64,000 nt of DNA. It comes from Patescibacteria group bacterium. GTDB lineage: Bacteria > Patescibacteriota > Microgenomatia > UBA1400 > PJMF01. Positions 4,548 through 18,300 of the stretch are shown here, in pieces. Under the pieces are notes generated by a model, which made no database searches, was not told the origin of the DNA, and was given only the letters and a program-made list of their open reading frames with translations. The first letter of the stretch is position 1. Every line of letters starts with the position of its first letter. The stretch spans positions 23,739-87,738 of the forward strand of contig JBBDKV010000017.1 in the NCBI GenBank assembly GCA_040879165.1. Reading direction: 5' to 3'. The position numbers were made by a program, and so were the translations under genes.

Positions 4548-5204
4548 TTACTCTACTATCTCACCCTTCAACTTTTCAGCTTCAATATGAAAAAAATCAC
4601 TTAAGCTTTTCCTATCAAGAGAACCAATGATAATTGGATCGTCGAGGTGAGCATCTGCTTCAAATAATCTGCTAGCTAACTGGAGTGGGTCAACATGCCA
4701 ATCAAACTTCAATTTTGCTTTCATTCGCAGCTCCTCAGTTCCAAAACCATACTTTCGAATGATTGTGTACAGATCAAAATAATCTCGGCCTCTTGGTTTT
4801 TGAACAATAGTAAACAATTTGTTGGTGGCAATATCAATAACACTGTCAACAAGGAGACCATCTTTTTTCTCTGGATGCTCAATTTGTTCAAAAGGATAAT
4901 AGGTGAACTCTAGTTTGAGAACAGACTCATCCTTGAAACGAATAAAGTATAAATTTCGGTTAAAGCTATTTTGGTAGTCAAATGAAATAAATTCTAACTT
5001 CTTTTGTAGGCTTTTAATTATGACTGTAATGTCTTGCGCATCAAATTCTTCGTGACAGAAAAAATCAAGATCTTCTGAATAACGATGTTGCAAGTAATAG
5101 TGTGAAAGGGCTGTGCCACCACTAAAATAAAAGTGCTCTGCTAGACTCGTTTCTGAGATTAATTTGAGCACTAATTGTTGCTGCTCAGTTAGGATTGTGA
5201 CCAT
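4548..5204 (-). CDS. AbiEii-like nucleotidyltransferase (DUF1814), type IV toxin-antitoxin toxin-like
   Basis: FYFSGGTALSHYYLQHRYSEDLDFF matches the GGTAL...RxSxDLDF signature of AbiEii/DUF1814 nucleotidyltransferases. Confidence 0.7.
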   Translation of the reverse strand: MVTILTEQQQLVLKLISETSLAEHFYFSGGTALSHYYLQHRYSEDLDFFCHEEFDAQDITVIIKSLQKKLEFISFDYQNSFNRNLYFIRFKDESVLKLEFTYYPFEQIEHPEKKDGLLVDSVIDIATNKLFTIVQKPRGRDYFDLYTIIRKYGFGTEELRMKAKLKFDWHVDPLQLASRLFEADAHLDDPIIIGSLDRKSLSDFFHIEAEKLKGEIVE

Positions 5205-5497
5205 ACAATGCTCTTTAAGTAGTTCCGCTTGGCTGCATCAATGTCAAGTTTATCCCAATTAGCTTTTAATTTTTCTAATGAAAGCTTTGTGTTGTTGAGA
5301 CCAAAATTGATTTGCTGCTCCAATACAAATTGATCATACTTAGCAGAATTTTTCTTAAGTCGAGTAGTGTCAGTGTTCCAGTTGTACATAGTAGTATTAT
5401 ACTTGAAAATGGGCGCATTTAATAGGTTTGACCGGAAAAAGAAACTAATTTTGGGTTGATAAATCAAAGCATATTGTTTTTGAGCAAAAATCCTCAA
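5189..5497 (-). CDS. Hypothetical small protein, possible cognate antitoxin or partner of the AbiEii-like gene
   Basis: Its 3' end overlaps the start of the AbiEii-like gene by 16 nt on the same strand. No recognisable wHTH. Confidence 0.3.
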   Translation of the reverse strand: MRIFAQKQYALIYQPKISFFFRSNLLNAPIFKYNTTMYNWNTDTTRLKKNSAKYDQFVLEQQINFGLNNTKLSLEKLKANWDKLDIDAAKRNYLKSIVWSQS

Positions 5498-6274: not shown

Positions 6275-6875
6275 CAACTACCACCACCAGAGGTGGTGGT
6301 ATGCCTTCCGCCTCAAAGGCGCTACTTGTTACAGTGTATGTTGTTCGTGACTTAGCCCTTTTGCTCTTTTTGTTGCTGCCACTTTACATACTTTTTTATT
6401 TTATCTTCGTCCAGTCCTACAGTACTCACACAATACCCTCTGCTCCATAAGTGTTTTCCCCAGTATTGTTTGGTGAGATCTTTCCTGCTCCCAAACAACT
6501 TGATTGCTACTTTCCCTTTCAGATATCCCATTACCTCACTGACGGAGTACTTGGGTGGAATACTGATGATTAAGTGAACATGGTCGGGTTGAATGTTAAT
6601 TTCTTCGATCTCAACCTTGTTCTTTTGACCACACAATCGGTACAGCTGGTTTCTTACAAATACTTCTGACTTTCCTTCTAGTACTTTATACCTATATTTG
6701 GGACAAAATACTATGTGATATGTACAGTGCCAGATACTGTGCGATAATCGGTTATACTTTTTCATAGCTCCTCCTGGAACTCGCCTTTCAGGCGGAGCTA
6801 TTTTATTTTACTATACTCGTTGAACGTTAATGAGCGCTCACCGCCTGTAGGCGGTGGATATCTGAGGGATTATAT
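6275..6875 (-). mobile_element. IS200/IS605-family insertion sequence (tnpA only) with subterminal hairpins
   Basis: TnpA ORF flanked by perfect hairpins caccacc-aga-ggtggtg (6284-6301) and cgcc-tcaaa-ggcg on one side. The other side has gcctttcaggcgg (6783-6797) and accgcctgtaggcggtgg (6840-6858). Boundaries are approximate. Confidence 0.7.
6352..6765 (-). CDS. tnpA: IS200/IS605 family transposase TnpA (HUH Y1 transposase)
   Basis: 137 aa. WHCTYHIVFCPKYR followed by the HUH motif DHVHLIISIPP and a C-terminal Tyr-bearing helix (YVKWQ). Confidence 0.9.
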   Translation of the reverse strand: MKKYNRLSHSIWHCTYHIVFCPKYRYKVLEGKSEVFVRNQLYRLCGQKNKVEIEEINIQPDHVHLIISIPPKYSVSEVMGYLKGKVAIKLFGSRKDLTKQYWGKHLWSRGYCVSTVGLDEDKIKKYVKWQQQKEQKG

Positions 6876-6911: not shown

Positions 6912-7430
6912 GTGGTTAATTCAAAAAAAGAAGCTTTTGACGAGTTAAGGAAAATGACAACCCCTCTGCCAATTGGCGGTGGTGTACTTACTACCTACTT
7001 ATCTATTGATGAAATTGACCCAGAAACAGAACTACCAAGCTCAGTAATAGCTGGTCTTAGTAGGCAACAAAATATACGTATTGATCCACAAATCTTCAAG
7101 ACGTTTTATGTAGAACAGATGGGTGAAAGATTTCCAACGGTATGTAGAGAAACTCTACTGGCATTATATTATCTTGGGGGAATAAGAGAAAAAGACATAC
7201 CAAGAATGAAAGAGTTAGAAGATTCGATCATGGCGCGTCCAACATGGACTACTCAAATTGACTCATATCGTTTGATAAAAGAGAAATGGGGAAATAAGGA
7301 CCGGCCTTTGATGGACAGAATAGGAAACGTAGTTGATAAATCAAGTTTATATAGGTTATTGAGAAGAAGAATGCCAAGAGTTACTGGAGCTATATTAGGA
7401 AAGTGTAAGAAAGTATTATATGGAAAGTAA
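6912..7430 (+). CDS. Hypothetical protein (GTG start), cargo of the integrative element
   Basis: 172-aa ORF with no recognised motif. It lies between the IS200 copy and the restriction-modification module. Confidence 0.4.
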   Translation: MVNSKKEAFDELRKMTTPLPIGGGVLTTYLSIDEIDPETELPSSVIAGLSRQQNIRIDPQIFKTFYVEQMGERFPTVCRETLLALYYLGGIREKDIPRMKELEDSIMARPTWTTQIDSYRLIKEKWGNKDRPLMDRIGNVVDKSSLYRLLRRRMPRVTGAILGKCKKVLYGK

Positions 7431-7565: not shown

Positions 7566-8171
7566 TTACTTTTCCCAAACAATATGCCCATTCATATCAT
7601 TCTTTTCATAGACCTCAAGAATTTCAGTACAAAACCGCAGGAGGTTTTCATCACCCGATTGTTTAGCTATTTCATATAGCCGAATATACATCTTCTTGCC
7701 TGTTTCAGTTTGCTTGAAGTTTTTCTTCAAAAAATTATGTTGACTACAAAGCGTTTGTCCGTTTTGTAGTGTTGCTCCACCACCCAAGTCTTTGGGTTTA
7801 ATGTGGTCAGCATGAATTTCAACTCCTTCATTTCTACCTCTGCCACATATTACACACTTGTAGTCATCTCTCTCAAAAATTTGCTTTCTCAATGCTGGAG
7901 TAAAGTCTTCAAGCTCTCTGATTTGAATCATACTAGGGTCATATCTATAAATGCCCTTGTTCACTTTGATGAGGTATCCATTTTGGTGCAACTTTCTGAT
8001 TGCTCTATCAGGGTCTCGAAATATCTCACCAGTTCTTTCTAGCCATTCACCTGTAGCCCAGTCAACAATTTCAGGATGACTAATATCTCTCTTGGGATGT
8101 CCTTCAAAATACTCCATTATCAATCCACTTTGGCTGAGCTTTTCTTTTTTTATATCGTCGCTTTTTGACAT
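7566..8171 (-). CDS. HNH endonuclease, putative restriction endonuclease of a type II R-M system
   Basis: CVICGRGRNEGVEIHADHIKPKDLGG...NGQTLCSQHN is an HNH motif with flanking Cys pairs. The N-terminal region is wHTH-like. It lies 17 nt downstream of a C5-methyltransferase on the same strand. Confidence 0.65.
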   Translation of the reverse strand: MSKSDDIKKEKLSQSGLIMEYFEGHPKRDISHPEIVDWATGEWLERTGEIFRDPDRAIRKLHQNGYLIKVNKGIYRYDPSMIQIRELEDFTPALRKQIFERDDYKCVICGRGRNEGVEIHADHIKPKDLGGGATLQNGQTLCSQHNFLKKNFKQTETGKKMYIRLYEIAKQSGDENLLRFCTEILEVYEKNDMNGHIVWEK

Positions 8172-8187
8172 ATTACTTCTTCCTTTT

Positions 8188-9183
8188 TTATTTTAACACT
8201 TTGAGTAAAGATGCGATTTGTTTTGCAACTGCTTCAACCACAGGGACTGCAACAGAGTTCCCAAATTGCCTGTACATTTGTGTCCTAGAAACAGGCACTT
8301 TGAAATCCTTAGGAAATCCCATAATAGCCTTACATTCATTTACAGTGAGAAGTCTCAGCCCAGTTTCTCCATCTTTGACAAATGTTCCAGTAAGTCTTTG
8401 TATCTTGTGGTAAGTCGAAACAAGAGTTTTTACTTGTATCCTTGAACTTTTATCAATGATCTTTGGTCTACCATCATCTTTTTTGAACAGGTAGCTTTCT
8501 TGCAAGTGCTTCGATATGGAATATCCAGAAACGTCTTGCTCAAGAAAATCATTTATGTATGATTTTTCCACGCCACCTGTAGGGAAAGTGAAACTTCTCT
8601 CCTTGAGAAGGTCTTTTCTAAATCCAACAATGTAAATCCGCTTTCTAAATTGTGGCACTCCAAAATCAGAAGCATCTAAAACTTTAGTAAAAACTTTATA
8701 CCCAGCTTCATCTAAGGAGTCTAAAATAACTTGAAATGTTCTTCCACTATCGTGACTGACTAAACCTGGCACATTTTCTAATAAAAATGCTTTGTTTTTT
8801 TTATTCTCGATAATTCTCAGTACGTCATAAAATAGAGTACCCTGAGTAGCATGTAGAAACCCTTGTCTCTTGCCAATAGAACTGAATGGTTGACAGGGGA
8901 ATCCGCCTACTAATACATCAAAATCTGGAATTTCTTTCTCATCTATCTTTGTTATATCACCATGTGGAATCTCTCCAAAATTAGCCTCATAGGTTTTTTG
9001 ACTATGCTTGTCCCACTCTGAAGAAAAAACACATTCTCCCCCAGCATTTTCAAATGCAATTCTAGTGCCTCCAATCCCAGCAAATAAATCAATAAACTTA
9101 AAATCACCAACAGTTGATCTTTTATTCTGGTCTTCAAACAGACTAGGTGCACTCATTTTAGATAATTTTTTTGTGTTACTCAT
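8188..9183 (-). CDS. DNA (cytosine-5)-methyltransferase
   Basis: Motif I FIDLFAGIGG, motif IV GGFPCQPFS and motif VI ENVPGL, with target-recognition and C-terminal motifs present. Confidence 0.9.
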   Translation of the reverse strand: MSNTKKLSKMSAPSLFEDQNKRSTVGDFKFIDLFAGIGGTRIAFENAGGECVFSSEWDKHSQKTYEANFGEIPHGDITKIDEKEIPDFDVLVGGFPCQPFSSIGKRQGFLHATQGTLFYDVLRIIENKKNKAFLLENVPGLVSHDSGRTFQVILDSLDEAGYKVFTKVLDASDFGVPQFRKRIYIVGFRKDLLKERSFTFPTGGVEKSYINDFLEQDVSGYSISKHLQESYLFKKDDGRPKIIDKSSRIQVKTLVSTYHKIQRLTGTFVKDGETGLRLLTVNECKAIMGFPKDFKVPVSRTQMYRQFGNSVAVPVVEAVAKQIASLLKVLK

Positions 9184-9207
9184 ATCAAAGACTCGTTTTT
9201 GAAAAAA

Positions 9208-9408
9208 CTATGTTTCCAATTTTCGTTTATCTAAAAAGTTTTGCAAATCATCTTCCTTGACTCGCAGTTCTTGCTCCAATTTGTAGGCGGGCAGTTTTTT
9301 CGTTTTGATATAGCGGTAAATGGTCATCTTGCTCACTTTGAGAGCTTGGGCGACTTCTTCAATGGTGAGGAGCGTCTGTGTTTGCACTATATTGATAGTA
9401 TCACTCAT
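9208..9408 (-). CDS. Small HTH DNA-binding protein (AlpA/excisionase-like), possible controller of the R-M operon
   Basis: 66 aa. LTIEEVAQALKVSKMTIYRYIKTKKLP is a classic HTH. It sits directly upstream of the methyltransferase on the same strand. Confidence 0.6.
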   Translation of the reverse strand: MSDTINIVQTQTLLTIEEVAQALKVSKMTIYRYIKTKKLPAYKLEQELRVKEDDLQNFLDKRKLET

Positions 9409-9463
9409 TCACATTTGTTTACAAGGGTGATATAGTTTTTCTCAAGAATTATCAAATATAAGT

Positions 9464-10621
9464 ATGAAACAAAGTTTTTTCCATCAAGATTTTTTGAAAC
9501 ACGTTGATCTCAATCTTTTCAACCAGTATTTACTTTCCAAGAATCTAACTGAAATAAGTACTCCAGATAGTAAGGCTGACAAAGCTCAAGCAATGTCTGA
9601 CTATTTAGTCAGTTTGACCGATGCGGACGGCGATATTGTGGTCAATGATCTTATGGTAGTGAGAGATTTGTCATCAGACGGCGGTGTGATTGCCATTATG
9701 GAGCTATCGGAGGAAGCTACTTTCAAGCAAGCCCTCTCGGAGCTGACAAGTAACATCAATCGGGTGCTATATTGCTTACTATACAAACCAGATTTGATTG
9801 AACCAGCTCTCAAGTTGAAGCAAATCACAGCGACTGAAAACTTCCACGTTCGCAGGGTGACAAAAAGCGTTGAGGCTGACCAAGTATTAGCCAAGCTCCC
9901 TGAGTTCAAACTTGAGTTGACTGCTTTCTTGCAGAAAGAGGAAGCAAAAGGAGCGAACTGCCAGATAGATAGCTATCAATTCAAAGATAGAGTTTGCTTT
10001 TTTGCCTATCCAGAAGATCATCCCAAATCATTGAATCTTTATCAGAACGGGAAGCTCAATCCTACAGTAGTGCATCCTAGCTTTGAGTTGGTTTTTGTCT
10101 ACTATCCAGAAATGAAACAGCTAGAAATAGCAACCCGAATGAGAAGCAAAAAATTACAAACTCTGTTCAACCTTTTCAATCGTGCTGTGCTAGACGACTC
10201 TCAGCCAGTACCAAACAACCAAGACACACTCAACCTCGATGTGTTGCTTACTGATGGATTTAGCTTCATTTTTGACCCGAGCTACCAAGTTGATTCTATA
10301 TGCGTAACTCAGATTCGCCTTGACTACAAGTACAACCGCAAGAAACGGTTTATCACCCATGTTGATGAGGGTAACGGCATGGAACAAATCTTAGAGGAGT
10401 TAAAATATCGCAATTTACGAGGTGATAGTCTACAACACTATGTGGTTGCCCAAGCTACCATCAAATTGCGTTTCAAACAGTTTGGACGAAGCAATCGGGT
10501 CACCACACTCTTGACCGCACCAGACAAAATAAAGCTCAATGAAACAAATCCTCACCAACTCGCCAAGAAGTGCCTACAGGACTGGAAAATCATCAATGAG
10601 CCACTCACAGACGCTGAATAA
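9464..10621 (+). CDS. Hypothetical protein, 385 aa, no recognisable domain
   Basis: Long uninterrupted ORF with a plausible RBS. Its 3' end overlaps the start of the next ORF, indicating translational coupling. Confidence 0.5.
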   Translation: MKQSFFHQDFLKHVDLNLFNQYLLSKNLTEISTPDSKADKAQAMSDYLVSLTDADGDIVVNDLMVVRDLSSDGGVIAIMELSEEATFKQALSELTSNINRVLYCLLYKPDLIEPALKLKQITATENFHVRRVTKSVEADQVLAKLPEFKLELTAFLQKEEAKGANCQIDSYQFKDRVCFFAYPEDHPKSLNLYQNGKLNPTVVHPSFELVFVYYPEMKQLEIATRMRSKKLQTLFNLFNRAVLDDSQPVPNNQDTLNLDVLLTDGFSFIFDPSYQVDSICVTQIRLDYKYNRKKRFITHVDEGNGMEQILEELKYRNLRGDSLQHYVVAQATIKLRFKQFGRSNRVTTLLTAPDKIKLNETNPHQLAKKCLQDWKIINEPLTDAE

Positions 10622-11675
10622 GCTACTAGATGCAGGTATCAACATCAAGGACTTTCAAATAAGTGCTAAAGATTTAGACCAACAATTTAGGCAGGTTGGT
10701 AACATCTTACTCAATCTTGGCTGGTTTACCCAAGATTATGCCACTGGTTATCAATGCTCGCAGTGCGGTGCTGTTCATGAGGTGGTGGCTTTCAATGGCA
10801 AGTATTTTATTGGCTGTGATGTGGACGGAGATTCTGGTTTAGAGACACTGAGCAAAGATGATCTATTGATCTATCGTTTTTCAGCCACGAAGTTCTTTGA
10901 ATGGTTGCAACAATCTTTCTCCTTGCAGGGTAATGTTGAATCCACTGACGATAGGGTATTACTTGGTCAGGGAACGGTAAACGGCAAGCAACGTCTGTTT
11001 ATATTCAGCCATGAAAACTCACCCGAAGCAAGAAAAGTACTCTGTCAGAAATACCTTATCAGTCAGCCTTTGATTCTCTACCTCAGCACCATTCACGATA
11101 ATCACAATCAGGGATATGACATCAACTTGGCTCATTATCTAGTAGTGCAAGAAATGGGTTTGAGCATCGATACAAACTCAGCTTTGAGTGCGATTGCAGA
11201 TTCCATACCGCCGTTTGCAGGTGAGGCTCAGACAAACTCAAGCATTTATGCCATTGAATTGAAGCTTGTGGGTGACAAAATTGTGCTAGTTGGCACAGCT
11301 CTTGGTGGTTCGTATCCAGCGTTCAAAGCCAAGAAGAAAAGAAGCACTGCCATGTCTAGATTGTTGAGAACCCTGCTCAATTTGCATGAGAACGATAAGG
11401 AAACTACCTCTGTAATTTACAAACAAAGCGTGCTTGAGGCGAACTACATTGACCCACGAAAAAACAAGCTAAATGACCTTGCAGAAATTGATCTCAGTCA
11501 AGACAAGCGACCACTGAGTGAACTCTGCTCACTCTTACTACCATACTTACTCGCACACCGACACCACAAAGACGACGGCTTAGTGGTCGAGTTCAAACCC
11601 GCTTTGTCGCAAGAGAGCTGGAACAGACTCCCAGACTCAGAAAAACAGAAGATTCTAGCTTCAAAGGCTAATTAG
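10539..11675 (+). CDS. Hypothetical protein, about 360-378 aa, with an N-terminal CxxC motif
   Basis: Long ORF. CSQCGAVHE suggests a zinc-ribbon-like element. The likely true start is Met at 10592 (MSHSQTL), overlapping the upstream ORF by about 30 nt. Confidence 0.5.
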   Translation: MKQILTNSPRSAYRTGKSSMSHSQTLNKLLDAGINIKDFQISAKDLDQQFRQVGNILLNLGWFTQDYATGYQCSQCGAVHEVVAFNGKYFIGCDVDGDSGLETLSKDDLLIYRFSATKFFEWLQQSFSLQGNVESTDDRVLLGQGTVNGKQRLFIFSHENSPEARKVLCQKYLISQPLILYLSTIHDNHNQGYDINLAHYLVVQEMGLSIDTNSALSAIADSIPPFAGEAQTNSSIYAIELKLVGDKIVLVGTALGGSYPAFKAKKKRSTAMSRLLRTLLNLHENDKETTSVIYKQSVLEANYIDPRKNKLNDLAEIDLSQDKRPLSELCSLLLPYLLAHRHHKDDGLVVEFKPALSQESWNRLPDSEKQKILASKAN

Positions 11676-11837
11676 CCAAACCTCGTCAATCCTCAGTTTG
11701 TGCAATTACTTGCATTTAGCAACGTCCATCAGTTGTGTTTTTTAGTACTTTCTGCGTTTGCGTGCATTTAGCGTTTTGGATCAAAAACCTAGGTGACAAT
11801 CCTCTTGCGAACATAAAAATTAGCAATGAGGATAAGC

Positions 11838-12086
11838 ATGAAAGACGCACACAATTACTTCACTACTTACGATCTGAACCTGTCAGCCGTATTGGTTTCA
11901 CAAAACTTCATTTTAGAAGAAATAGAAAAACCTGAAAGCGGGAAAGCTCTTTTTTACTTCAAAAAAAGCGATGCTCTGCTAGAGACTATTGATCGCTACT
12001 GGAAAAACCAGCTCCAAATCTCCCCTCAAACCTTATTTACCAGTTTGAAATCCATCAAGAACCGCCTGTACAGCGGTTGGAAGTAA
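11838..12086 (+). CDS. Small DUF5659-like protein typical of CPR and phage mobile elements
   Basis: MKDAHNYFTTYDLNLSAVLVSQNFILEEIEK...ALFYFKK resembles the small DUF5659 family. Assignment from memory, not a search. Confidence 0.35.
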   Translation: MKDAHNYFTTYDLNLSAVLVSQNFILEEIEKPESGKALFYFKKSDALLETIDRYWKNQLQISPQTLFTSLKSIKNRLYSGWK

Positions 12087-12286
12087 AAGTCATGTTGAGT
12101 CGTGCCTCAGTGACAAAGTTCCAGCAAATCTACTTCCAAGAGTACGGCATCAATCTAGATGAGCAGACTGCCTACGAGCTGGCGAATAACCTCGCAAACC
12201 TGTACCGCAGTGTCTACCTGCCAGACACAAAAAATATAAGTCAAAAATATGAAACGAACACATCAACTCAGACGAATCAAAACTAA
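12077..12286 (+). CDS. Hypothetical small protein
   Basis: 69-aa ORF overlapping neighbours by a few nt in a compact same-strand array. Confidence 0.25.
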   Translation: MEVKVMLSRASVTKFQQIYFQEYGINLDEQTAYELANNLANLYRSVYLPDTKNISQKYETNTSTQTNQN

Positions 12287-12302
12287 GAAGTCTTACTCAT
12301 CT

Positions 12303-12668
12303 ATGGAGTTGGCTAACTTGCTTGGTGTTCATGTTCAAACAGTACGATCATGGGCAAGTAATGGTTTAGAACCCCTCAGCCCAAACGCTCACAGACCTTT
12401 GTTTTTAGGTCAGACAGTGAAGTCCTATCTTTCCAAACTGCAAGACGCTCGCAAAGTGAAGCTCCAAGTGGGTGAGTTCTACTGCCTACGGTGTCGAGTC
12501 GCCATCACGCCAGAGTTAGTGATTGAGGTTGATCGTCATGTCACCATCGGCAAGCACAAAGACTCGATTTTACTTACCGCCCACTGTCCACAGTGCAACT
12601 GCCCCGTCAATAAGTTTTCTAGCCGAATATCAACCAACCAGAAAGGAAAATATGCTCCTGACGCATAA
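12303..12668 (+). CDS. HTH (MerR/excisionase-like) protein with a C-terminal Cys4 zinc ribbon
   Basis: MELANLLGVHVQTVRSWASNG is an HTH. CLRC...CPQCNC gives four Cys. It lies upstream of the integrase genes. Confidence 0.5.
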   Translation: MELANLLGVHVQTVRSWASNGLEPLSPNAHRPLFLGQTVKSYLSKLQDARKVKLQVGEFYCLRCRVAITPELVIEVDRHVTIGKHKDSILLTAHCPQCNCPVNKFSSRISTNQKGKYAPDA

Positions 12669-12996
12669 ACGGTACGAAGTCCCTGGCGACTGGTATCAAC
12701 CCAAACAGCAACTCCTCACCAAGCCGAGTGTGATGTTGGCTGAGTACTACGAAACATCATCAAGCTCTGGTGATTGGAGTGGGTACTTCTTGCAGAAAAT
12801 CGGTCAAGCCTATCACCTGATTTTATTCACTCAGGAAAACCTTTATCCAGAGGATGGCTTTGAGTTGATGACAGGTGTGGTAATCCACACATTCAAATCC
12901 GAGCCAAACAAACCCGATGTTGCAAAGGTCATTATCTCAGTACTTGAACACTCTCGTAATCACTCACTTAGTAATAACGCAGAAATGAAAGGATAA
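12652..12996 (+). CDS. Hypothetical protein
   Basis: The ORF starts at ATG 12652, overlapping the stop of the previous gene. No motif recognised. Confidence 0.35.
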   Translation: MLLTHKRYEVPGDWYQPKQQLLTKPSVMLAEYYETSSSSGDWSGYFLQKIGQAYHLILFTQENLYPEDGFELMTGVVIHTFKSEPNKPDVAKVIISVLEHSRNHSLSNNAEMKG

Positions 12997-13148
12997 CTAT
13001 GTTGAATCACGCTCAATTATCGTTTTTAGCAGTAATACTCTGGGTTGGAATAACCTATCTGGCAACTGCCAAGAAAGAGTTTCCCTGGCATCTAGTAATT
13101 TTGGCAGTAATTATCACACTCGAATTACTCTCGAAATAGAAAGGCATT

Positions 13149-14264
13149 ATGTCAAAAACCAAAGACAAAAACGAACGCATCAAACGCAAGTATCTCAACT
13201 GGCTACAAGAGGCTGAGGGATTTTCAGAGAAGTCGATCACGGCGGTAGAAAAAGCTCTGTGGAAATATGAAGATTTTATCAAGGATTCAGACTACAGCAC
13301 GTTCAATCATAAGCAGGCTGAACAATTCAAGAAATATCTGACAACCAACAAAAATAAGGTCAGTAACAAAATCCTCTCACTGAGATCGCAATATCACATC
13401 CTCAGGCACGTTCGCAACTTCTTGACTTGGTTATCTGGACAGCTTGGCTATAAGTCCCGTATCTCAACCTACGATGTCCAGTACTTGCAACTGAGCAAAA
13501 AAGATCGGCGGGTTGCGACCTCTGCCTCACTTCCAAAGTATCCCACCCTTGAGCAGATCAAACAGCTTTGTAGCTTTTCAGTTCAAACTGAGCTTGACCA
13601 GCGAGATCGAGCGTTGATAGCCTTTACTGCTCTAACAGGCATGAGAGATCAAGCGATTGTTACCTTGCCACTTGGTTGTTTTGACCAAGAGAAAATGCTC
13701 GTGCAACAGCTCCCAAGCAAAGGTGTTCAAACCAAGTTCAGCAAGGACATTTATACTACTCTTTTTCAGGTAGATGAAACGCTGGCTGGCTACTTTTTGA
13801 AGTGGTACGCTTATTTGAAAACGGAGAAGCATTTTGGGCTGGAAGATCCGATATTTCCGAGTACAGAGGTAGGTTTTGTTAGTAAAAATCACCATGCCTT
13901 TACCCCTATTGGTATTAGTAAAGAGTTCTGGGCAGATACCAATCCGATGCGAAAGATTTTTCAGGAGCGAAGCAAGCAAGCGAACGTGCCTTACTACACC
14001 CCCCATAAGTTCAGGCACTTCATCATCAATGAGGCTCAGAAACACATCACGAGCATTGAACAGCTCAAGGCTCTCAGTCAGAACCTGGGTCATGAAAACA
14101 TAAGCACCACTTTTCATGGCTACGGAGCAATTGATACTTATCGAGTCAATGAGTTGGTCAGTTCTATTGATTTTTCAGGACTTCCCAAGAACCAAGCAGA
14201 AGAAGCTCAACTTGAAAGAATCGCTGATCTTGTCGCTAAAAAATTAGGAAGAAATGAGCTATAA
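13149..14264 (+). CDS. Tyrosine recombinase / phage-type integrase
   Basis: The C-terminal catalytic region has HKFRHF and LGHENISTTFHGYGAI, the R..H..R..Y signature. Confidence 0.85.
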   Translation: MSKTKDKNERIKRKYLNWLQEAEGFSEKSITAVEKALWKYEDFIKDSDYSTFNHKQAEQFKKYLTTNKNKVSNKILSLRSQYHILRHVRNFLTWLSGQLGYKSRISTYDVQYLQLSKKDRRVATSASLPKYPTLEQIKQLCSFSVQTELDQRDRALIAFTALTGMRDQAIVTLPLGCFDQEKMLVQQLPSKGVQTKFSKDIYTTLFQVDETLAGYFLKWYAYLKTEKHFGLEDPIFPSTEVGFVSKNHHAFTPIGISKEFWADTNPMRKIFQERSKQANVPYYTPHKFRHFIINEAQKHITSIEQLKALSQNLGHENISTTFHGYGAIDTYRVNELVSSIDFSGLPKNQAEEAQLERIADLVAKKLGRNEL

Positions 14265-14294
14265 TGTTAGTGTTGACCCAAGTTATAGTGGTGC

Positions 14295-16040
14295 ATGAAA
14301 AAAGGCAGTTCTGCCAACGTATGCACTATGTTGGGTCAACCAGGACTGTCTTTTTATATGAGAATAAGAAAAACACTTACTAGCCTCAAGCCAAGAAAAT
14401 CTGGTCACCCCAAGCAGAATCGGTACATTCTATATGCCCGTAAGTCTACTACCTCAGAAGACCGTCAAGTTGCTTCGATTGAGTCCCAGATCGAAGTGAT
14501 GAAAGAGGTAGCTCGTGAGCATGATTTGGAAGTTTCAGAGGTATTGAGTGAAGCAGGTTCAGGCTTCAAGATAGGTAGACAAGCGTTCAATGCCATGATC
14601 GAAAAGATCGAAAGCGGTGAAGCTGATGGCATCATTGTCTGGAAGCTCTCACGCTTATCTCGTAACCCTGATGATGCGGGCAAAATCATGGGCTTACTGC
14701 AACGAGGTGAAATCAAGCACATTCGCACCGCAGACCGCAACTGGTATCCAGAAGACAACGTGATGATGATGTATGTTGAGTTTGGTATGACCAACCAGTT
14801 TAGTCGTGATCTGAGTTCAGACACTCGCCGAGGATTAGTCAAAAAAGCTGAGCGTGGTTGGTTGCCGAACGCCATTCTCCCACTTGGCTATATGCACAGC
14901 CCATACAAAAAGTTAGGTGATGAAGAAATTATCATTGATAAAAGCCGTTTTGACTTGATTCAAGAGGGTTTGAAGCTGGTAGCTTCTGGACAGAAAACAC
15001 CTGTTGAAGCTCATGGCTATTTAGTTACTCAAGGTGTTGTGGGAAAAAGAAGTGAAGCATTACCTAAAAGCACTTGGTACAAGATGTTAGTTGAACCACT
15101 ATACGCAGGGACTTTTGAGTATCCAATAGGTAGTGGTCAGTTTTATGACTCCAAAGCACCCAGAGCCATAGAACCGACTGAGTACGATGCCATTCAAGTT
15201 GTTTTAGGTAGAAAAGATAAGCCTCGACCCAAGACTCACTTTTTGCCTTACACGGGTTTGATGAAGTGCGGTGAGTGTGGTTGCTCCATTACTGCTGAAA
15301 AGAAGCGGAAAGTGCAGAAAAATGGTAACGTGCATCACTATATCTACTATCACTGTACCAAGAAAAAAGGCGAGTGTGGTCAGCCGTGTACGCCTGTTGA
15401 TACACTTGAGAAGCAATATAAGTCCATTTTGAAACGTATCAAAATCCCCTTAGCCTTTCACGAATGGGCTATTGATGAGATCAAATATGACCAAGAAAAA
15501 GTCATCAGGGATCGTGACACCAGCCTACAACGAACTCGAACAAACTACGATGACTGCCTGAGTGAGATTGATAACTTGGTAAAGAAATACCTTGAGGGGA
15601 AAGTGCCAGAAGACTACTATGATCGCAACCTTGCCAAGCTCAATAAAAACAAAAAGACATTGGCGAAAATCTTGGAGGGTATAGACAAAGGTGTCGATGA
15701 AAACTTGGAAAAAATCGATAAAGACCTAGATTTTGCCGTAACAGCCAGAAGACGCTTCAACCAAGGCAACGACTCCAAACGTCGAGAGATCATTTCCTAT
15801 TTAGGCTCGAACCTCATCCTCAAAGACCATTCACTCGGCATTGAGCTGAGAAAACCGCTGGAATTGGTGGCAGAAATTGCAGAAGAAGTCAATGCTGTTG
15901 CAGAAAAGTTCGAACCTCTAGAAAATGCTGATAATTCGGCACAATTTAAGTTGTATTTGTCTGAAAATCCTGCAATGGGTGGTATACCGGACTTGAACCG
16001 GCGACCTCCGCTGCCACAGAGCGGCGCTCTAACCAACTGA
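14295..16040 (+). CDS. Large serine recombinase (resolvase domain + recombinase domain + zinc ribbon)
   Basis: YARKSTTSEDRQVASIESQ carries the catalytic Ser. GIIVWKLSRLSRN is also present. The CGECGC...YYHCTKKK zinc ribbon fits this family, as does the 581-aa length. The 3' end overlaps tRNA-His. Confidence 0.85.
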   Translation: MKKGSSANVCTMLGQPGLSFYMRIRKTLTSLKPRKSGHPKQNRYILYARKSTTSEDRQVASIESQIEVMKEVAREHDLEVSEVLSEAGSGFKIGRQAFNAMIEKIESGEADGIIVWKLSRLSRNPDDAGKIMGLLQRGEIKHIRTADRNWYPEDNVMMMYVEFGMTNQFSRDLSSDTRRGLVKKAERGWLPNAILPLGYMHSPYKKLGDEEIIIDKSRFDLIQEGLKLVASGQKTPVEAHGYLVTQGVVGKRSEALPKSTWYKMLVEPLYAGTFEYPIGSGQFYDSKAPRAIEPTEYDAIQVVLGRKDKPRPKTHFLPYTGLMKCGECGCSITAEKKRKVQKNGNVHHYIYYHCTKKKGECGQPCTPVDTLEKQYKSILKRIKIPLAFHEWAIDEIKYDQEKVIRDRDTSLQRTRTNYDDCLSEIDNLVKKYLEGKVPEDYYDRNLAKLNKNKKTLAKILEGIDKGVDENLEKIDKDLDFAVTARRRFNQGNDSKRREIISYLGSNLILKDHSLGIELRKPLELVAEIAEEVNAVAEKFEPLENADNSAQFKLYLSENPAMGGIPDLNRRPPLPQSGALTN

Positions 16041-16052
16041 GCTAATACCACC
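15977..16052 (-). tRNA. tRNA-His (GTG)
   Basis: Manual cloverleaf. G-1 plus acceptor GTGGTAT/ATACCAC with C73. D-arm GCTCAGTTGGTTAGAGC. Anticodon loop CTGTGGC. T-arm GCCGG-TTCAAGT-CCGGT. Confidence 0.85.
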
Positions 16053-18224: not shown

Positions 18225-18300
18225 TGGTGCGCCAAGCTGGACTCGAACCAGCGACCTACTGCTTAGAAGGCAGTTGCTCTATCCACTGAGCTATTGGCGC
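18225..18300 (-). tRNA. tRNA-Arg (TCT)
   Basis: Acceptor GCGCCAA/TTGGCGC. D-arm GCTCAGTGGATAGAGC. Anticodon stem ACTGC/GCAGT with loop CTTCTAA. T-arm GCTGG-TTCGAGT-CCAGC. CCA encoded. Confidence 0.85.

What the first reader, a model, noticed from the sequence alone, without database searches (positions are those of the whole stretch)
7566..9408. Compact type II R-M operon: small HTH, then C5-cytosine methyltransferase, then HNH-family endonuclease
The methyltransferase has all canonical m5C motifs. The gene 17 nt downstream on the same strand encodes an HNH nuclease with an N-terminal wHTH-like domain. A 66-aa HTH protein sits just upstream and may act as a controller. HNH-type type II restriction enzymes are a minority class.
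Basis: partly seen in the sequence, partly recalled or inferred. Interest (0 to 1): 0.5.

Follow-up and report, generated by a model that had tools for sequence, protein, structure and literature searches.

The report
HNH-type restriction-modification cassette, probably CCGG
This is an ordinary but real DNA-cutting and DNA-marking defence gene pair, carried on a mobile island, whose cutting enzyme belongs to a very widespread family that seems never to have been tested and probably targets the sequence CCGG.

Summary
The three minus-strand genes are real: an HTH_17 protein (9408-9208), an m5C methyltransferase (9183-8188) and a 201-aa HNH nuclease (8171-7566).

The type II R-M reading holds. 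In 61 of 68 related loci that could be assessed, across Bacteria and Archaea, a methyltransferase sits directly upstream of the HNH homolog. Usually it is an SPPY-motif N4-cytosine type; in a minority it is this m5C type. Some relatives carry a separate true Vsr gene after the HNH gene. This rules out the Vsr-like and homing-endonuclease alternatives.

The nuclease is a winged helix, an HNH domain and a helical hairpin. No solved restriction enzyme matches it over its full length.

The methyltransferase is not HhaI-like in its target-recognition domain. It is 62% identical overall, and 68% identical without gaps across that domain, to the methylase that sits beside true R.MspI. The predicted site is therefore CCGG. 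This matches CCGG depletion in host loci and resembles the published, unconfirmed MjaVI system (m4CCGG).

The small HTH is not a classical C protein. Close copies head quite different cassettes (HaeIII-type, NgoPII-type, a helicase, a type III Mod) at the edge of an integrative island beside tRNA-His. Its role as a regulator is plausible but unproven.

Verdict: a new member of a known kind, of modest interest.

The parts
9208..9408 (-). Small HTH_17 (excisionase-family fold) DNA-binding protein of 66 aa. It is the first gene of the cassette. It is a portable leader gene, possibly a regulator.
   Evidence: PF12728 E 3.9e-16. TIGR01764 scores 49.8 bits against a cut-off of 28.8; MADS MAD1 scores 48 bits, below its cut-off of 80. 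Close homologs (63-88% aa) precede different cargo in L077-L091. The gene is fused in frame to the MTase in P0122/L095.
9409..9463 (-). 55-nt divergent intergenic region and 5' leader upstream of the HTH gene. It contains the conserved block ACTATATCACCCTTGTAAACAAATGTGA just before the ATG. A promoter-like site, TGGAAA-17-TATATT, lies at 9483..9455 and extends beyond this region into the start of orf385.
   Evidence: Consensus scan. Alignment A3 of 10 loci. DNA homology to other loci starts about 30-35 nt upstream of the ATG. No strong inverted repeat or C-box was found.
8188..9183 (-). C5-cytosine DNA methyltransferase of 331 aa, of the MspI type. Predicted target is CCGG. By analogy with M.MspI it would methylate the outer C.
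   Evidence: PF00145 E 1.5e-104. It is 62% identical to P0241 over residues 18-331; the target-recognition domain (201-285) matches at 58/85 without gaps. P0241 and P0254 lie beside R.MspI, which matches PDB 1SA3 at E 1.3e-129. The same domain is only 32% identical to M.HhaI, and with gaps.
7566..8171 (-). Restriction endonuclease of 201 aa. It has a winged helix (about residues 14-76), a linker, an HNH/beta-beta-alpha-Me domain (about 92-151) and a C-terminal helical hairpin (159-191). HNH features are C106, C109, C142 and H145 as zinc ligands, D122-H123, N137 and N146.
9464..16051 (+). Context: the conserved backbone of the integrative island. It holds orf385, orf378, DUF5659, a Tyr integrase (13149-14264) and a large Ser recombinase (14295-16040), and it abuts tRNA-His (15977-16051, minus strand).
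   Evidence: Locus L080 shares window 13395..9222 at 82% nt identity. Homology stops at the end of the HTH gene, where a NgoPII-type R-M replaces the M-HNH pair.

Best explanation
This is a three-gene cassette, transcribed from a promoter upstream of the HTH gene, that encodes a type II restriction-modification system.

The 331-aa methyltransferase is an MspI-type C5-cytosine methylase. It most likely methylates CCGG; by analogy with M.MspI it would modify the outer cytosine. This protects host DNA.

The 201-aa protein just downstream, after a 16-nt gap and with its own Shine-Dalgarno-like GGAAG, is the cognate restriction endonuclease. Its N-terminal winged helix, with invariant residues R52, D53, D55, R56, R59, Q63, K69, Y75 and Y77, would read the unmethylated site. 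Its HNH active site (D122-H123, N137, N146; a C106/C109/C142/H145 zinc site) would cut. It probably acts as a dimer through the C-terminal helical hairpin.

The same nuclease family usually pairs with an N4-cytosine methylase instead, so either N4 or C5 methylation of the site must block it.

The cassette is cargo at the variable edge of an integrative island next to tRNA-His. The small HTH_17 gene is a portable leader that also heads other R-M and defence cassettes, and it probably regulates the operon promoter.

Shown here: gene structure, domain folds, conserved M-R linkage, and MspI-type target-recognition similarity. Inferred: CCGG as the cleavage target, dimerisation, the role of the winged helix, and the regulatory role of the HTH.
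For: ORFs and domains are established.

The HNH family is large: 2917 hits at 55-85% identity across Bacteria and Archaea. In the 50%-clustered library, 77 representatives score E<=1e-30.

Of 73 loci, 54 have an SPPY-motif N6_N4 MTase directly upstream on the same strand. Seven have the m5C type, 5 are at contig edges, and 4 of the remaining 7 have an MTase within about 1.3 kb or immediately adjacent on the opposite strand. The Calditerrivibrio plasmid also shows M followed by HNH.

Relatives have the order M, HNH, then a true Vsr.

No residue is fixed differently between HNH proteins with N4 partners and those with m5C partners.

Structure: a winged helix plus HNH.

CCGG inference: the MTase is 62% identical to P0241, and the target-recognition domain matches at 68% without gaps. 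P0241 and P0254 are the divergent neighbours of R.MspI. CCGG is the most depleted palindromic 4-mer by O/E in m5C-type host loci, 49 observed against 105 expected.

Literature: M.MjaVI is an N4-cytosine CCGG methylase (m4CCGG) with an overlapping 218-aa unclonable R gene. This is the same layout as the N4-type loci (PMC2615612). m4C CCGG methylases are listed for other archaea (PMC11033074).

HTH: close homologs precede HaeIII-type, NgoPII-type, ResIII-helicase, type III Mod and DrmD cargo at gaps of 18-60 nt. The HTH is fused to the MTase in P0122. A PADLOC type II MTase model begins with an HTH_17-like stretch.
Against: No biochemical data exist for any member of this HNH family that I could find. 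Peptide searches of the literature were empty. PADLOC REase_II models match only the HNH core, weakly.

CCGG depletion is not universal in host loci. GGCC and GATC are as depleted or more so, and I had no control set.

The nuclease could recognise a longer site that contains CCGG.

That P0241 is M.MspI itself rests on its neighbour being R.MspI. Methylation of the outer cytosine rests on established knowledge and was not tested.

Whether R.MjaVIP belongs to this HNH family could not be tested.

The HTH is absent from nearly all other loci of the family. It lacks a recognisable operator repeat. It also matches the excisionase-family domain model, on an island that has two recombinases.
Confidence: 0.75

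Rival explanations
1. The small HTH is not part of the R-M system. It would be the island's recombination directionality factor (excisionase) or a general island regulator that happens to sit at the boundary where cargo is exchanged. M and R would then be constitutively read through from its promoter.
For: TIGR01764 'excisionase family DNA-binding' scores above its cut-off. A Tyr integrase and a large Ser recombinase lie on the same island. L025 also has a large Ser recombinase right after HTH-M-HNH. The 4.2-kb backbone homology with L080 ends exactly at the end of the HTH gene. The HTH is absent from about 70 other M-HNH loci.
Against: HTH homologs with cargo also lie next to housekeeping genes (ftsZ, a Rieske oxygenase) without the orf385/orf378 backbone. 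The HTH is always co-oriented with and tightly spaced from the cargo. In-frame fusion to the MTase occurs in P0122, and an HTH_17-like N-terminus occurs in a DrmD-like protein (L094) and in a PADLOC type II MTase model.
Confidence: 0.35
2. The system is a type II R-M, but the nuclease does not recognise plain CCGG. It would recognise a longer or degenerate site containing CCGG (for example RCCGGY or CCCGGG), or an unrelated site that the methylase also covers.
For: Only the methylase specificity is inferred. CCGG depletion in N4-type loci is modest, 0.73 pooled. In the window it is 0.74.
Against: Several hosts show near-complete loss of CCGG: L053 has 1 of 16 expected, L050 2/17, L034 0/10 and L028 7/47. 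A characterised N4 methylase of the analogous MjaVI layout makes m4CCGG.
Confidence: 0.25
3. The HNH protein is not a restriction enzyme. It would be a Vsr-like mismatch nickase, a homing endonuclease, or a McrA-like methyl-dependent (type IV) enzyme.
For: The nearest structural HNH neighbours are EcoKMcrA and TagI. Some sources label homologs 'McrA'.
Against: Most partners are N4-cytosine methylases. These do not create the T:G deamination mismatches that Vsr repairs; this point is established knowledge and was not tested here. Relatives carry a separate true Vsr. The constant translationally coupled M-to-R order is incompatible with a methyl-dependent nuclease and is not expected for a homing endonuclease. 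No intron or intein context is seen.
Confidence: 0.03
4. The cassette is a decayed or silent R-M remnant, with an inactive nuclease and the methylase acting as an orphan.
For: Truncated HNH genes exist in several other loci (L059, L063, L065, L066, L069). The cassette sits among IS200 and other mobile debris.
Against: The window's HNH ORF is full length and keeps every invariant and nearly invariant residue of the family. The MTase matches the full Pfam profile.
Confidence: 0.1

Closest known systems
MspI restriction-modification system (Moraxella sp.; CCGG)
   Same: The methyltransferase is of the same type: 62% identity to the MTase beside true R.MspI, with the target-recognition domain 68% identical and gapless. 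The predicted site is the same, CCGG.
   Different: R.MspI (PF09208, PDB 1SA3) has an unrelated fold, whereas the nuclease here is winged helix plus HNH. The MspI genes are divergent; here they are co-directional in the order M then R. M.MspI carries a fused N-terminal Xre-type HTH of about 95 aa that this MTase lacks. Here a separate HTH_17 gene precedes it.
MjaVI system of Methanocaldococcus jannaschii (M.MjaVI makes m4CCGG; R.MjaVIP is putative) (PMC2615612)
   Same: The layout matches the majority (N4-type) loci of this HNH family: an N4-cytosine methylase of about 263 aa overlapping a small downstream R gene of about 218 aa. The site is CCGG, methylated on the outer cytosine.
   Different: The partner methylase in the window is m5C, not m4C. 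I could not obtain the R.MjaVIP sequence, so homology to this HNH family is untested.
HNH type IIP restriction enzymes Hpy99I, KpnI and PacI
   Same: A beta-beta-alpha-Me catalytic core with structural zinc, small size, and a presumed homodimer on a palindromic site (PMC4081073).
   Different: There is no detectable sequence similarity outside the HNH core: no PDB sequence hit to them at E<1 and no full-length fold match. Among the PDB matches found here, none combines an N-terminal winged helix with an HNH domain.
EcoKMcrA / TagI (type IV HNH enzymes)
   Different: They require modified cytosine and are never paired with a methylase. Here the obligatory linkage to a methylase implies the opposite methylation sensitivity.
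Controller (C) proteins, and MTases with N-terminal HTH that autoregulate (SsoII and MspI types)
   Same: A small DNA-binding protein, encoded first and co-oriented with R-M genes. A natural HTH-MTase fusion exists (P0122).
   Different: The fold family is HTH_17 (excisionase/MerR-like), not Xre. No C-box was found. The gene precedes M rather than R. It is shared with helicase-type and type III cargo, and it is missing from most loci of this R-M family.

Membership tests
Type II restriction-modification system | Separate, adjacent genes for a DNA methyltransferase and a nuclease | tested here: met
   M at 9183..8188 and HNH at 8171..7566, same strand, 16-nt gap.
Type II restriction-modification system | Methyltransferase with the complete catalytic motif set | tested here: met
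   PF00145 matched over profile positions 1-323 of 324, E 1.5e-104. Motifs I, IV, VI, VIII and X were read in the translation. It aligns with M.HhaI.
Type II restriction-modification system | Nuclease-methylase linkage conserved across unrelated genomes | tested here: met
   61 of 68 assessable loci have an MTase directly upstream, and 4 more have one within about 1.3 kb or immediately adjacent on the opposite strand. Additional loci L074 and L095-L102 agree.
Type II restriction-modification system | Sequence-specific cleavage that is blocked by the cognate methylation | not testable with these tools
   Requires enzyme assays.
HNH / beta-beta-alpha-Me nuclease superfamily | HNH motif with zinc ligands, and the beta-beta-alpha fold | tested here: met
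MspI-type m5C methyltransferase (CCGG) | Target-recognition domain homologous to that of the methylase partnered with R.MspI | tested here: met
   Residues 201-285 match at 58/85 identical with no gaps. This compares with 32%, with gaps, to M.HhaI, and no target-recognition similarity to HaeIII- or NgoPII-type MTases. The partner's neighbour is R.MspI.
MspI-type m5C methyltransferase (CCGG) | N-terminal Xre-type HTH extension of about 95 aa | tested here: not met
   The alignment starts at residue 95 of P0241. The window protein has only 17 residues before that point.
MspI-type m5C methyltransferase (CCGG) | Methylates the outer cytosine of CCGG | not testable with these tools
   Needs protection assays or bisulfite or long-read methylome data.
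Controller (C) protein of R-M systems | Xre-type HTH (HTH_3/HTH_31) protein of about 80 aa | tested here: not met
   The best family is HTH_17 (59.5 bits). HTH_3 scores only 18.6 bits, below its cut-off of 23.
Controller (C) protein of R-M systems | Palindromic C-box operators upstream of its own gene | tested here: inconclusive
   No strong inverted repeat in 9150-9520. Only a 4+4 TTGT-AA-ACAA element sits in the conserved leader.
Controller (C) protein of R-M systems | Co-inherited with the R-M family it controls | tested here: not met
   An HTH is present only in the window, L095 and L025 among about 75 M-HNH loci. Close HTH homologs head other cargo.
Vsr very-short-patch repair endonuclease | Vsr fold (PF03852) and association with m5C methylases only | tested here: not met
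   There is no PF03852 match. Partners are mostly N4 methylases. A separate PF03852 gene follows the HNH gene in L096, L097, L101 and L102.
Homing endonuclease (HNH class) | Located in an intron or intein, or free-standing in phage, with no obligatory methylase partner | tested here: not met
   Constant coupling to a methylase. Phage hits cover only the HNH core, apart from one weak match at 28% identity, H7.
Excisionase / recombination directionality factor | Excisionase-family DNA-binding domain | tested here: met
   TIGR01764 scores 49.8 bits against a cut-off of 28.8. This is a domain-level model only.
Excisionase / recombination directionality factor | Stimulates excision by the cognate recombinase | not testable with these tools
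   Needs excision assays. Context evidence is mixed.
MADS MAD1 | Reaches the NCBIfam equivalog cut-off | tested here: not met
   48.3 bits against a cut-off of 80.
MjaVI-like system | The nuclease is homologous to R.MjaVIP | not tested
   The sequence could not be obtained. A cluster look-up of 10 candidate representatives gave no M. jannaschii entry. Only the layout and site agree.

The most novel reading that the evidence does not exclude
The winged-helix-HNH proteins would be a globally distributed restriction-enzyme family, never characterised biochemically, that recognises CCGG. This would be a further unrelated fold for that site, besides MspI and HpaII (BsuFI from my own recollection). 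The family would swap freely between N4-cytosine and C5-cytosine methylase partners. It would give R.MjaVIP and thousands of 'HNH endonuclease' annotations a function. The 200-bp HTH_17 leader gene would be a portable promoter-regulator module that marks a cassette-exchange point for defence genes on integrative islands.
Probability: 0.4. Interest if true: 0.45.

Novelty: new member of a known kind. Interest (0 to 1): 0.3.

Why it matters
If confirmed, it would name the function and target of a very common family that is generically annotated as 'HNH endonuclease'. That family has 2917 hits in the 90%-identity cluster collection, found in Bacteria, candidate-phyla bacteria and Archaea.

It would add an HNH-fold enzyme to the CCGG isoschizomers. 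Such an enzyme might have a different cut position or methylation sensitivity, which is useful for epigenetic assays that rely on the MspI/HpaII pair.

It is also a clean natural example of one nuclease family protected interchangeably by m4C or m5C methylation.

The portable HTH_17 leader in front of alternative defence cargo is a small lead on how such cassettes are regulated or exchanged.

None of this changes current concepts of restriction-modification.

Tried and rejected
1. Inferring GCGC from the best PDB hit, M.HhaI. Rejected, because the target-recognition domain does not align (32% with gaps).

2. Inferring the site from palindrome depletion alone. Inconclusive. GGCC has the lowest O/E and GATC the lowest z-score. 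No site is depleted in all hosts, and I had no control set.

3. The GGCC hypothesis, prompted by HaeIII- and NgoPII-type cassettes behind the same HTH. Rejected, because there is no target-recognition similarity to those MTases. The cyanobacterial GGm4CC methylase M.Ssp6803II also belongs to a different class, D12 (PMC6105098).

4. Literature searches gave nothing. These covered family peptides, TTHA0409, SuaI and Gardnerella GGCC enzymes, and the Blow et al. 2016 supplements searched for Calditerrivibrio.

5. Source names from the big protein searches gave no specificity.

6. I looked for MspI-type MTase homologs paired with a nuclease of known Pfam family among close relatives. All of them were paired with the HNH protein. 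This was resolved instead by querying with my recalled M.MspI sequence. That query hit a real 418-aa protein at 95% identity whose neighbour is R.MspI.

7. The AFDB Foldseek library was unavailable.

8. Looking for att repeats of the island: no direct repeat of 16 nt or more was found.

9. Identifying R.MjaVIP among family representatives: not found.
Full report
**Observation.** Three co-directional ORFs lie on the minus strand.
- A 66-aa protein at 9408..9208.
- A 331-aa protein at 9183..8188.
- A 201-aa protein at 8171..7566.

Pfam assigns HTH_17 (E 3.9e-16), DNA_methylase (E 1.5e-104, the full profile) and HNH (E 5.8e-7, above the cut-off). NCBIfam adds the dcm superfamily for the methylase and the excisionase-family domain for the HTH.

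**Is the HNH protein a restriction enzyme?** The protein belongs to a large, tightly conserved family. There are 2917 hits in the protein collection, and the best 120 are 64-100% identical. Seventy-two genomic loci were found, at 53-84% identity for full-length matches. They come from Pseudomonadales, Bacteroidota, Helicobacter, Pseudanabaena, Chloroflexota, candidate-phyla bacteria, Woesearchaeota and Nanoarchaeota.

I called the neighbouring ORFs in every locus and searched them with both kinds of methylase. The count below covers these 72 loci plus the window's own contig, L001.
- 54 of 73 loci have a methylase of about 280 aa directly upstream on the same strand, often overlapping the HNH start.
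- 7 have the HhaI/MspI-like m5C methylase.
- 5 are at contig ends.
- Of the other 7, 4 have a methylase within about 1.3 kb or immediately adjacent on the opposite strand.

The 280-aa partners carry TSPPYN and FxGSGTT motifs in the beta-class order. Forty-one of 43 match PF01555. Their closest solved relatives are TTHA0409 and the rotifer N4-cytosine methyltransferase. A Calditerrivibrio plasmid shows the same pair, annotated 'site-specific DNA-methyltransferase' and 'HNH endonuclease'.

Close relatives of the window's pair have the order M, HNH, then a true Vsr (PF03852). Together these facts dispose of the Vsr-like, homing and methyl-dependent alternatives.
- Vsr is supplied by a separate gene.
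- Most partners are N4 methylases, for which Vsr-type repair is not known to be relevant.
- A methyl-dependent nuclease could not be obligatorily coupled to a methylase.

**Anatomy of the nuclease.** An AlphaFold model built on 51 family members has mean pLDDT 85. It shows:
- a canonical winged helix (residues 14-76);
- a linker;
- an HNH beta-beta-alpha domain (92-151);
- a helical hairpin (159-191).

Invariant residues cluster in three places:
- the third helix and wing of the winged helix: R52, D53, D55, R56, R59, Q63, K69, Y75, Y77;
- the HNH core: C106, C109, D122, H123, N137, C142, H145, N146;
- a KQTETGKK segment.

No position is fixed differently between nucleases partnered with N4 methylases and those partnered with m5C methylases. 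This suggests a single specificity protected by either modification. That the winged helix reads the site and the hairpin mediates dimerisation is inference.

**Which site?** The best PDB hit of the methylase is M.HhaI. However, the similarity lies in the catalytic domain, and the target-recognition region does not align. Palindrome depletion in the window and in host loci was suggestive but not decisive. GGCC, GATC and CCGG are all low.

The methylase resembled what I recalled of M.MspI. I therefore searched the protein collection with the recalled M.MspI sequence. It hit a real 418-aa protein, P0241, at 95% identity, with relatives in Acinetobacter and Psychrobacter. P0241 and P0254 lie divergently beside a 265-aa gene with the Endonuc-MspI domain. 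That neighbour matches PDB 1SA3, 'Type II restriction enzyme MspI', over its full length at E 1.3e-129. These are therefore MspI-type systems, independently of my memory.

The window's methylase compares with P0241 as follows:

| Region | Identity to P0241 |
|---|---|
| Residues 18-331 overall | 62% |
| Catalytic part | 59% |
| Target-recognition domain (201-285) | 68%, no gaps |
| C-terminal motifs | 71% |

Across the same target-recognition domain it is only 32% identical to HhaI, and with gaps.

The predicted target is therefore CCGG. By established knowledge of M.MspI, the outer cytosine would be methylated. Three further points agree:
- CCGG is the most depleted palindromic tetramer by O/E in the m5C-type host loci, with 49 observed against 105 expected.
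- Zheng et al. 2009 showed that M. jannaschii MJ1209 encodes an N4-cytosine methylase making m4CCGG. An overlapping 218-aa putative restriction gene follows it; it could not be cloned and its activity is still listed as unknown (PMC2615612). This is exactly the layout of the N4-type loci here.
- Further m4C CCGG methylases are listed for archaea (PMC11033074).

I could not obtain the R.MjaVIP sequence to test homology.

**The small HTH.** It is an HTH_17/excisionase-family protein, not an Xre-type C protein. Among the M-HNH loci it occurs only in three places:
- the window;
- L095, an 89%-identical relative in which it is fused in frame to the methylase (P0122);
- L025, at 44% identity.

A metagenome scan with the HTH found 20 loci. 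Close copies are 63-88% identical in protein and 81-88% in DNA over the gene plus about 35 nt upstream. They are followed at 18-60 nt by quite different cargo:
- NgoPII-type R plus M (L080);
- M plus HaeIII-type R (L084);
- a ResIII helicase protein of about 950 aa that is unknown to PADLOC (L077-79, L082, L085, L087);
- a type III Mod-like methylase (L091);
- a DrmD-like helicase (L094).

L080 shares 4.2 kb of backbone with the window, from 13395 to 9222, at 82% identity. The homology ends at the end of the HTH gene. In L082 and L085 the HTH and its cargo lie next to ftsZ and a Rieske oxygenase.

No strong inverted repeat precedes the gene. A promoter-like site at 9483..9455 and a conserved leader are present. 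The HTH is thus a portable first gene of defence cassettes, most simply a promoter-proximal regulator. An excisionase or island-regulator role remains possible, because the island has a tyrosine integrase and a large serine recombinase abutting tRNA-His. L025 also has a serine recombinase right after the cassette.

**Comparison and novelty.** The system works like any type IIP R-M.
- Its methylase is a member of the MspI type, minus the fused HTH.
- Its nuclease is a member of the HNH superfamily but of no characterised restriction-enzyme family that I could detect. PADLOC REase_II models touch only the HNH core, and there are no literature hits.
- HNH enzymes are the second commonest catalytic class of type II enzymes (PMC4081073).
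- Unrelated nucleases for one site are well known.

I therefore rate it a new member of a known kind. The points of interest are modest: a probable new fold class for CCGG, interchangeable m4C and m5C protection, and the portable HTH leader.

**Confidence.**

| Claim | Confidence |
|---|---|
| Type II R-M with an HNH nuclease | about 0.9 |
| Methylase site is CCGG | about 0.8 |
| Nuclease site is exactly CCGG | about 0.6 |
| HTH is a regulator of the cassette | about 0.5 |

Noticed in passing
window 6352-6765 (-): An IS200/IS605-type Y1 transposase (PF01797, E 2.8e-37) lies about 800 nt beyond the end of the cassette. The unknown convergent ORF 6912-7430 (+) sits in between and has no family match.
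   Followed up: partly
window 4548-5204 (-) and 5189-5497 (-): An AbiEii toxin gene (PF08843) with an overlapping upstream 102-aa ORF that may be the AbiEi antitoxin or a remnant of it. This would be a second defence or addiction module near the R-M cassette.
   Followed up: no
window 13149-16051: A tyrosine integrase (13149-14264) is directly followed by a large serine recombinase (14295-16040). The recombinase ORF runs into tRNA-His (15977-16051, minus strand). tRNA-Arg lies at 18225-18300. No direct repeat of 16 nt or more marks the island ends.
   Followed up: partly
window 9464-11675; L077-L080, L083: orf385 and orf378 overlap by 83 nt. They are conserved island-backbone proteins with no Pfam, NCBIfam or PADLOC match. 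The orf385 homolog in L077-79 is only 30% identical, while the flanking HTH and orf378 remain 88% and 67% identical. This indicates mosaic recombination.
   Followed up: partly
L075 411-545 versus window 16055-15922 and 9577: A metagenome contig joins tRNA-Arg, tRNA-His and its 55-nt flank directly to window position 9577, inside the 5' part of orf385. The 6.3 kb holding both recombinases is absent there, either as a deletion derivative or as a pre-insertion state.
   Followed up: partly
L077 4222-7089, L082 2172-5036, L085 4220-7072: ResIII/SNF2-like helicase proteins of about 950 aa sit behind the same HTH leader and have no hit in PADLOC. They are candidate uncharacterised defence genes.
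   Followed up: partly
L095 371-1588 (P0122): In an 89%-identical relative, the HTH and the methylase form one 405-aa ORF (HTH_17 plus DNA_methylase). The contig has low coverage (2.8x), so this could be a sequencing error or a natural fusion.
   Followed up: partly
L096 4658-5071, L101 4600-5001: A true Vsr gene (PF03852) follows the HNH gene in m5C-type relatives, giving an M-R-V operon. The window has no Vsr.
   Followed up: yes
whole window; L028, L039, L053, L061, L065: GGCC is strongly depleted: O/E 0.43 in the window, and 0 of 41 expected in L028. GATC is depleted in many host loci. This is probably the footprint of other R-M systems and is unrelated to this cassette.
   Followed up: partly
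L023 1967-3768: One locus carries both an N4-type methylase and an m5C methylase (44% identical to the window's) upstream of the HNH gene.
   Followed up: no
whole window: The public record carrying the identical HNH protein is labelled a Patescibacteria MAG. The window encodes a PAS-HisKA kinase, enolase, EpmA, MscS and IS200, and its island relatives come from environmental metagenomes. The host assignment was not verified.
   Followed up: no
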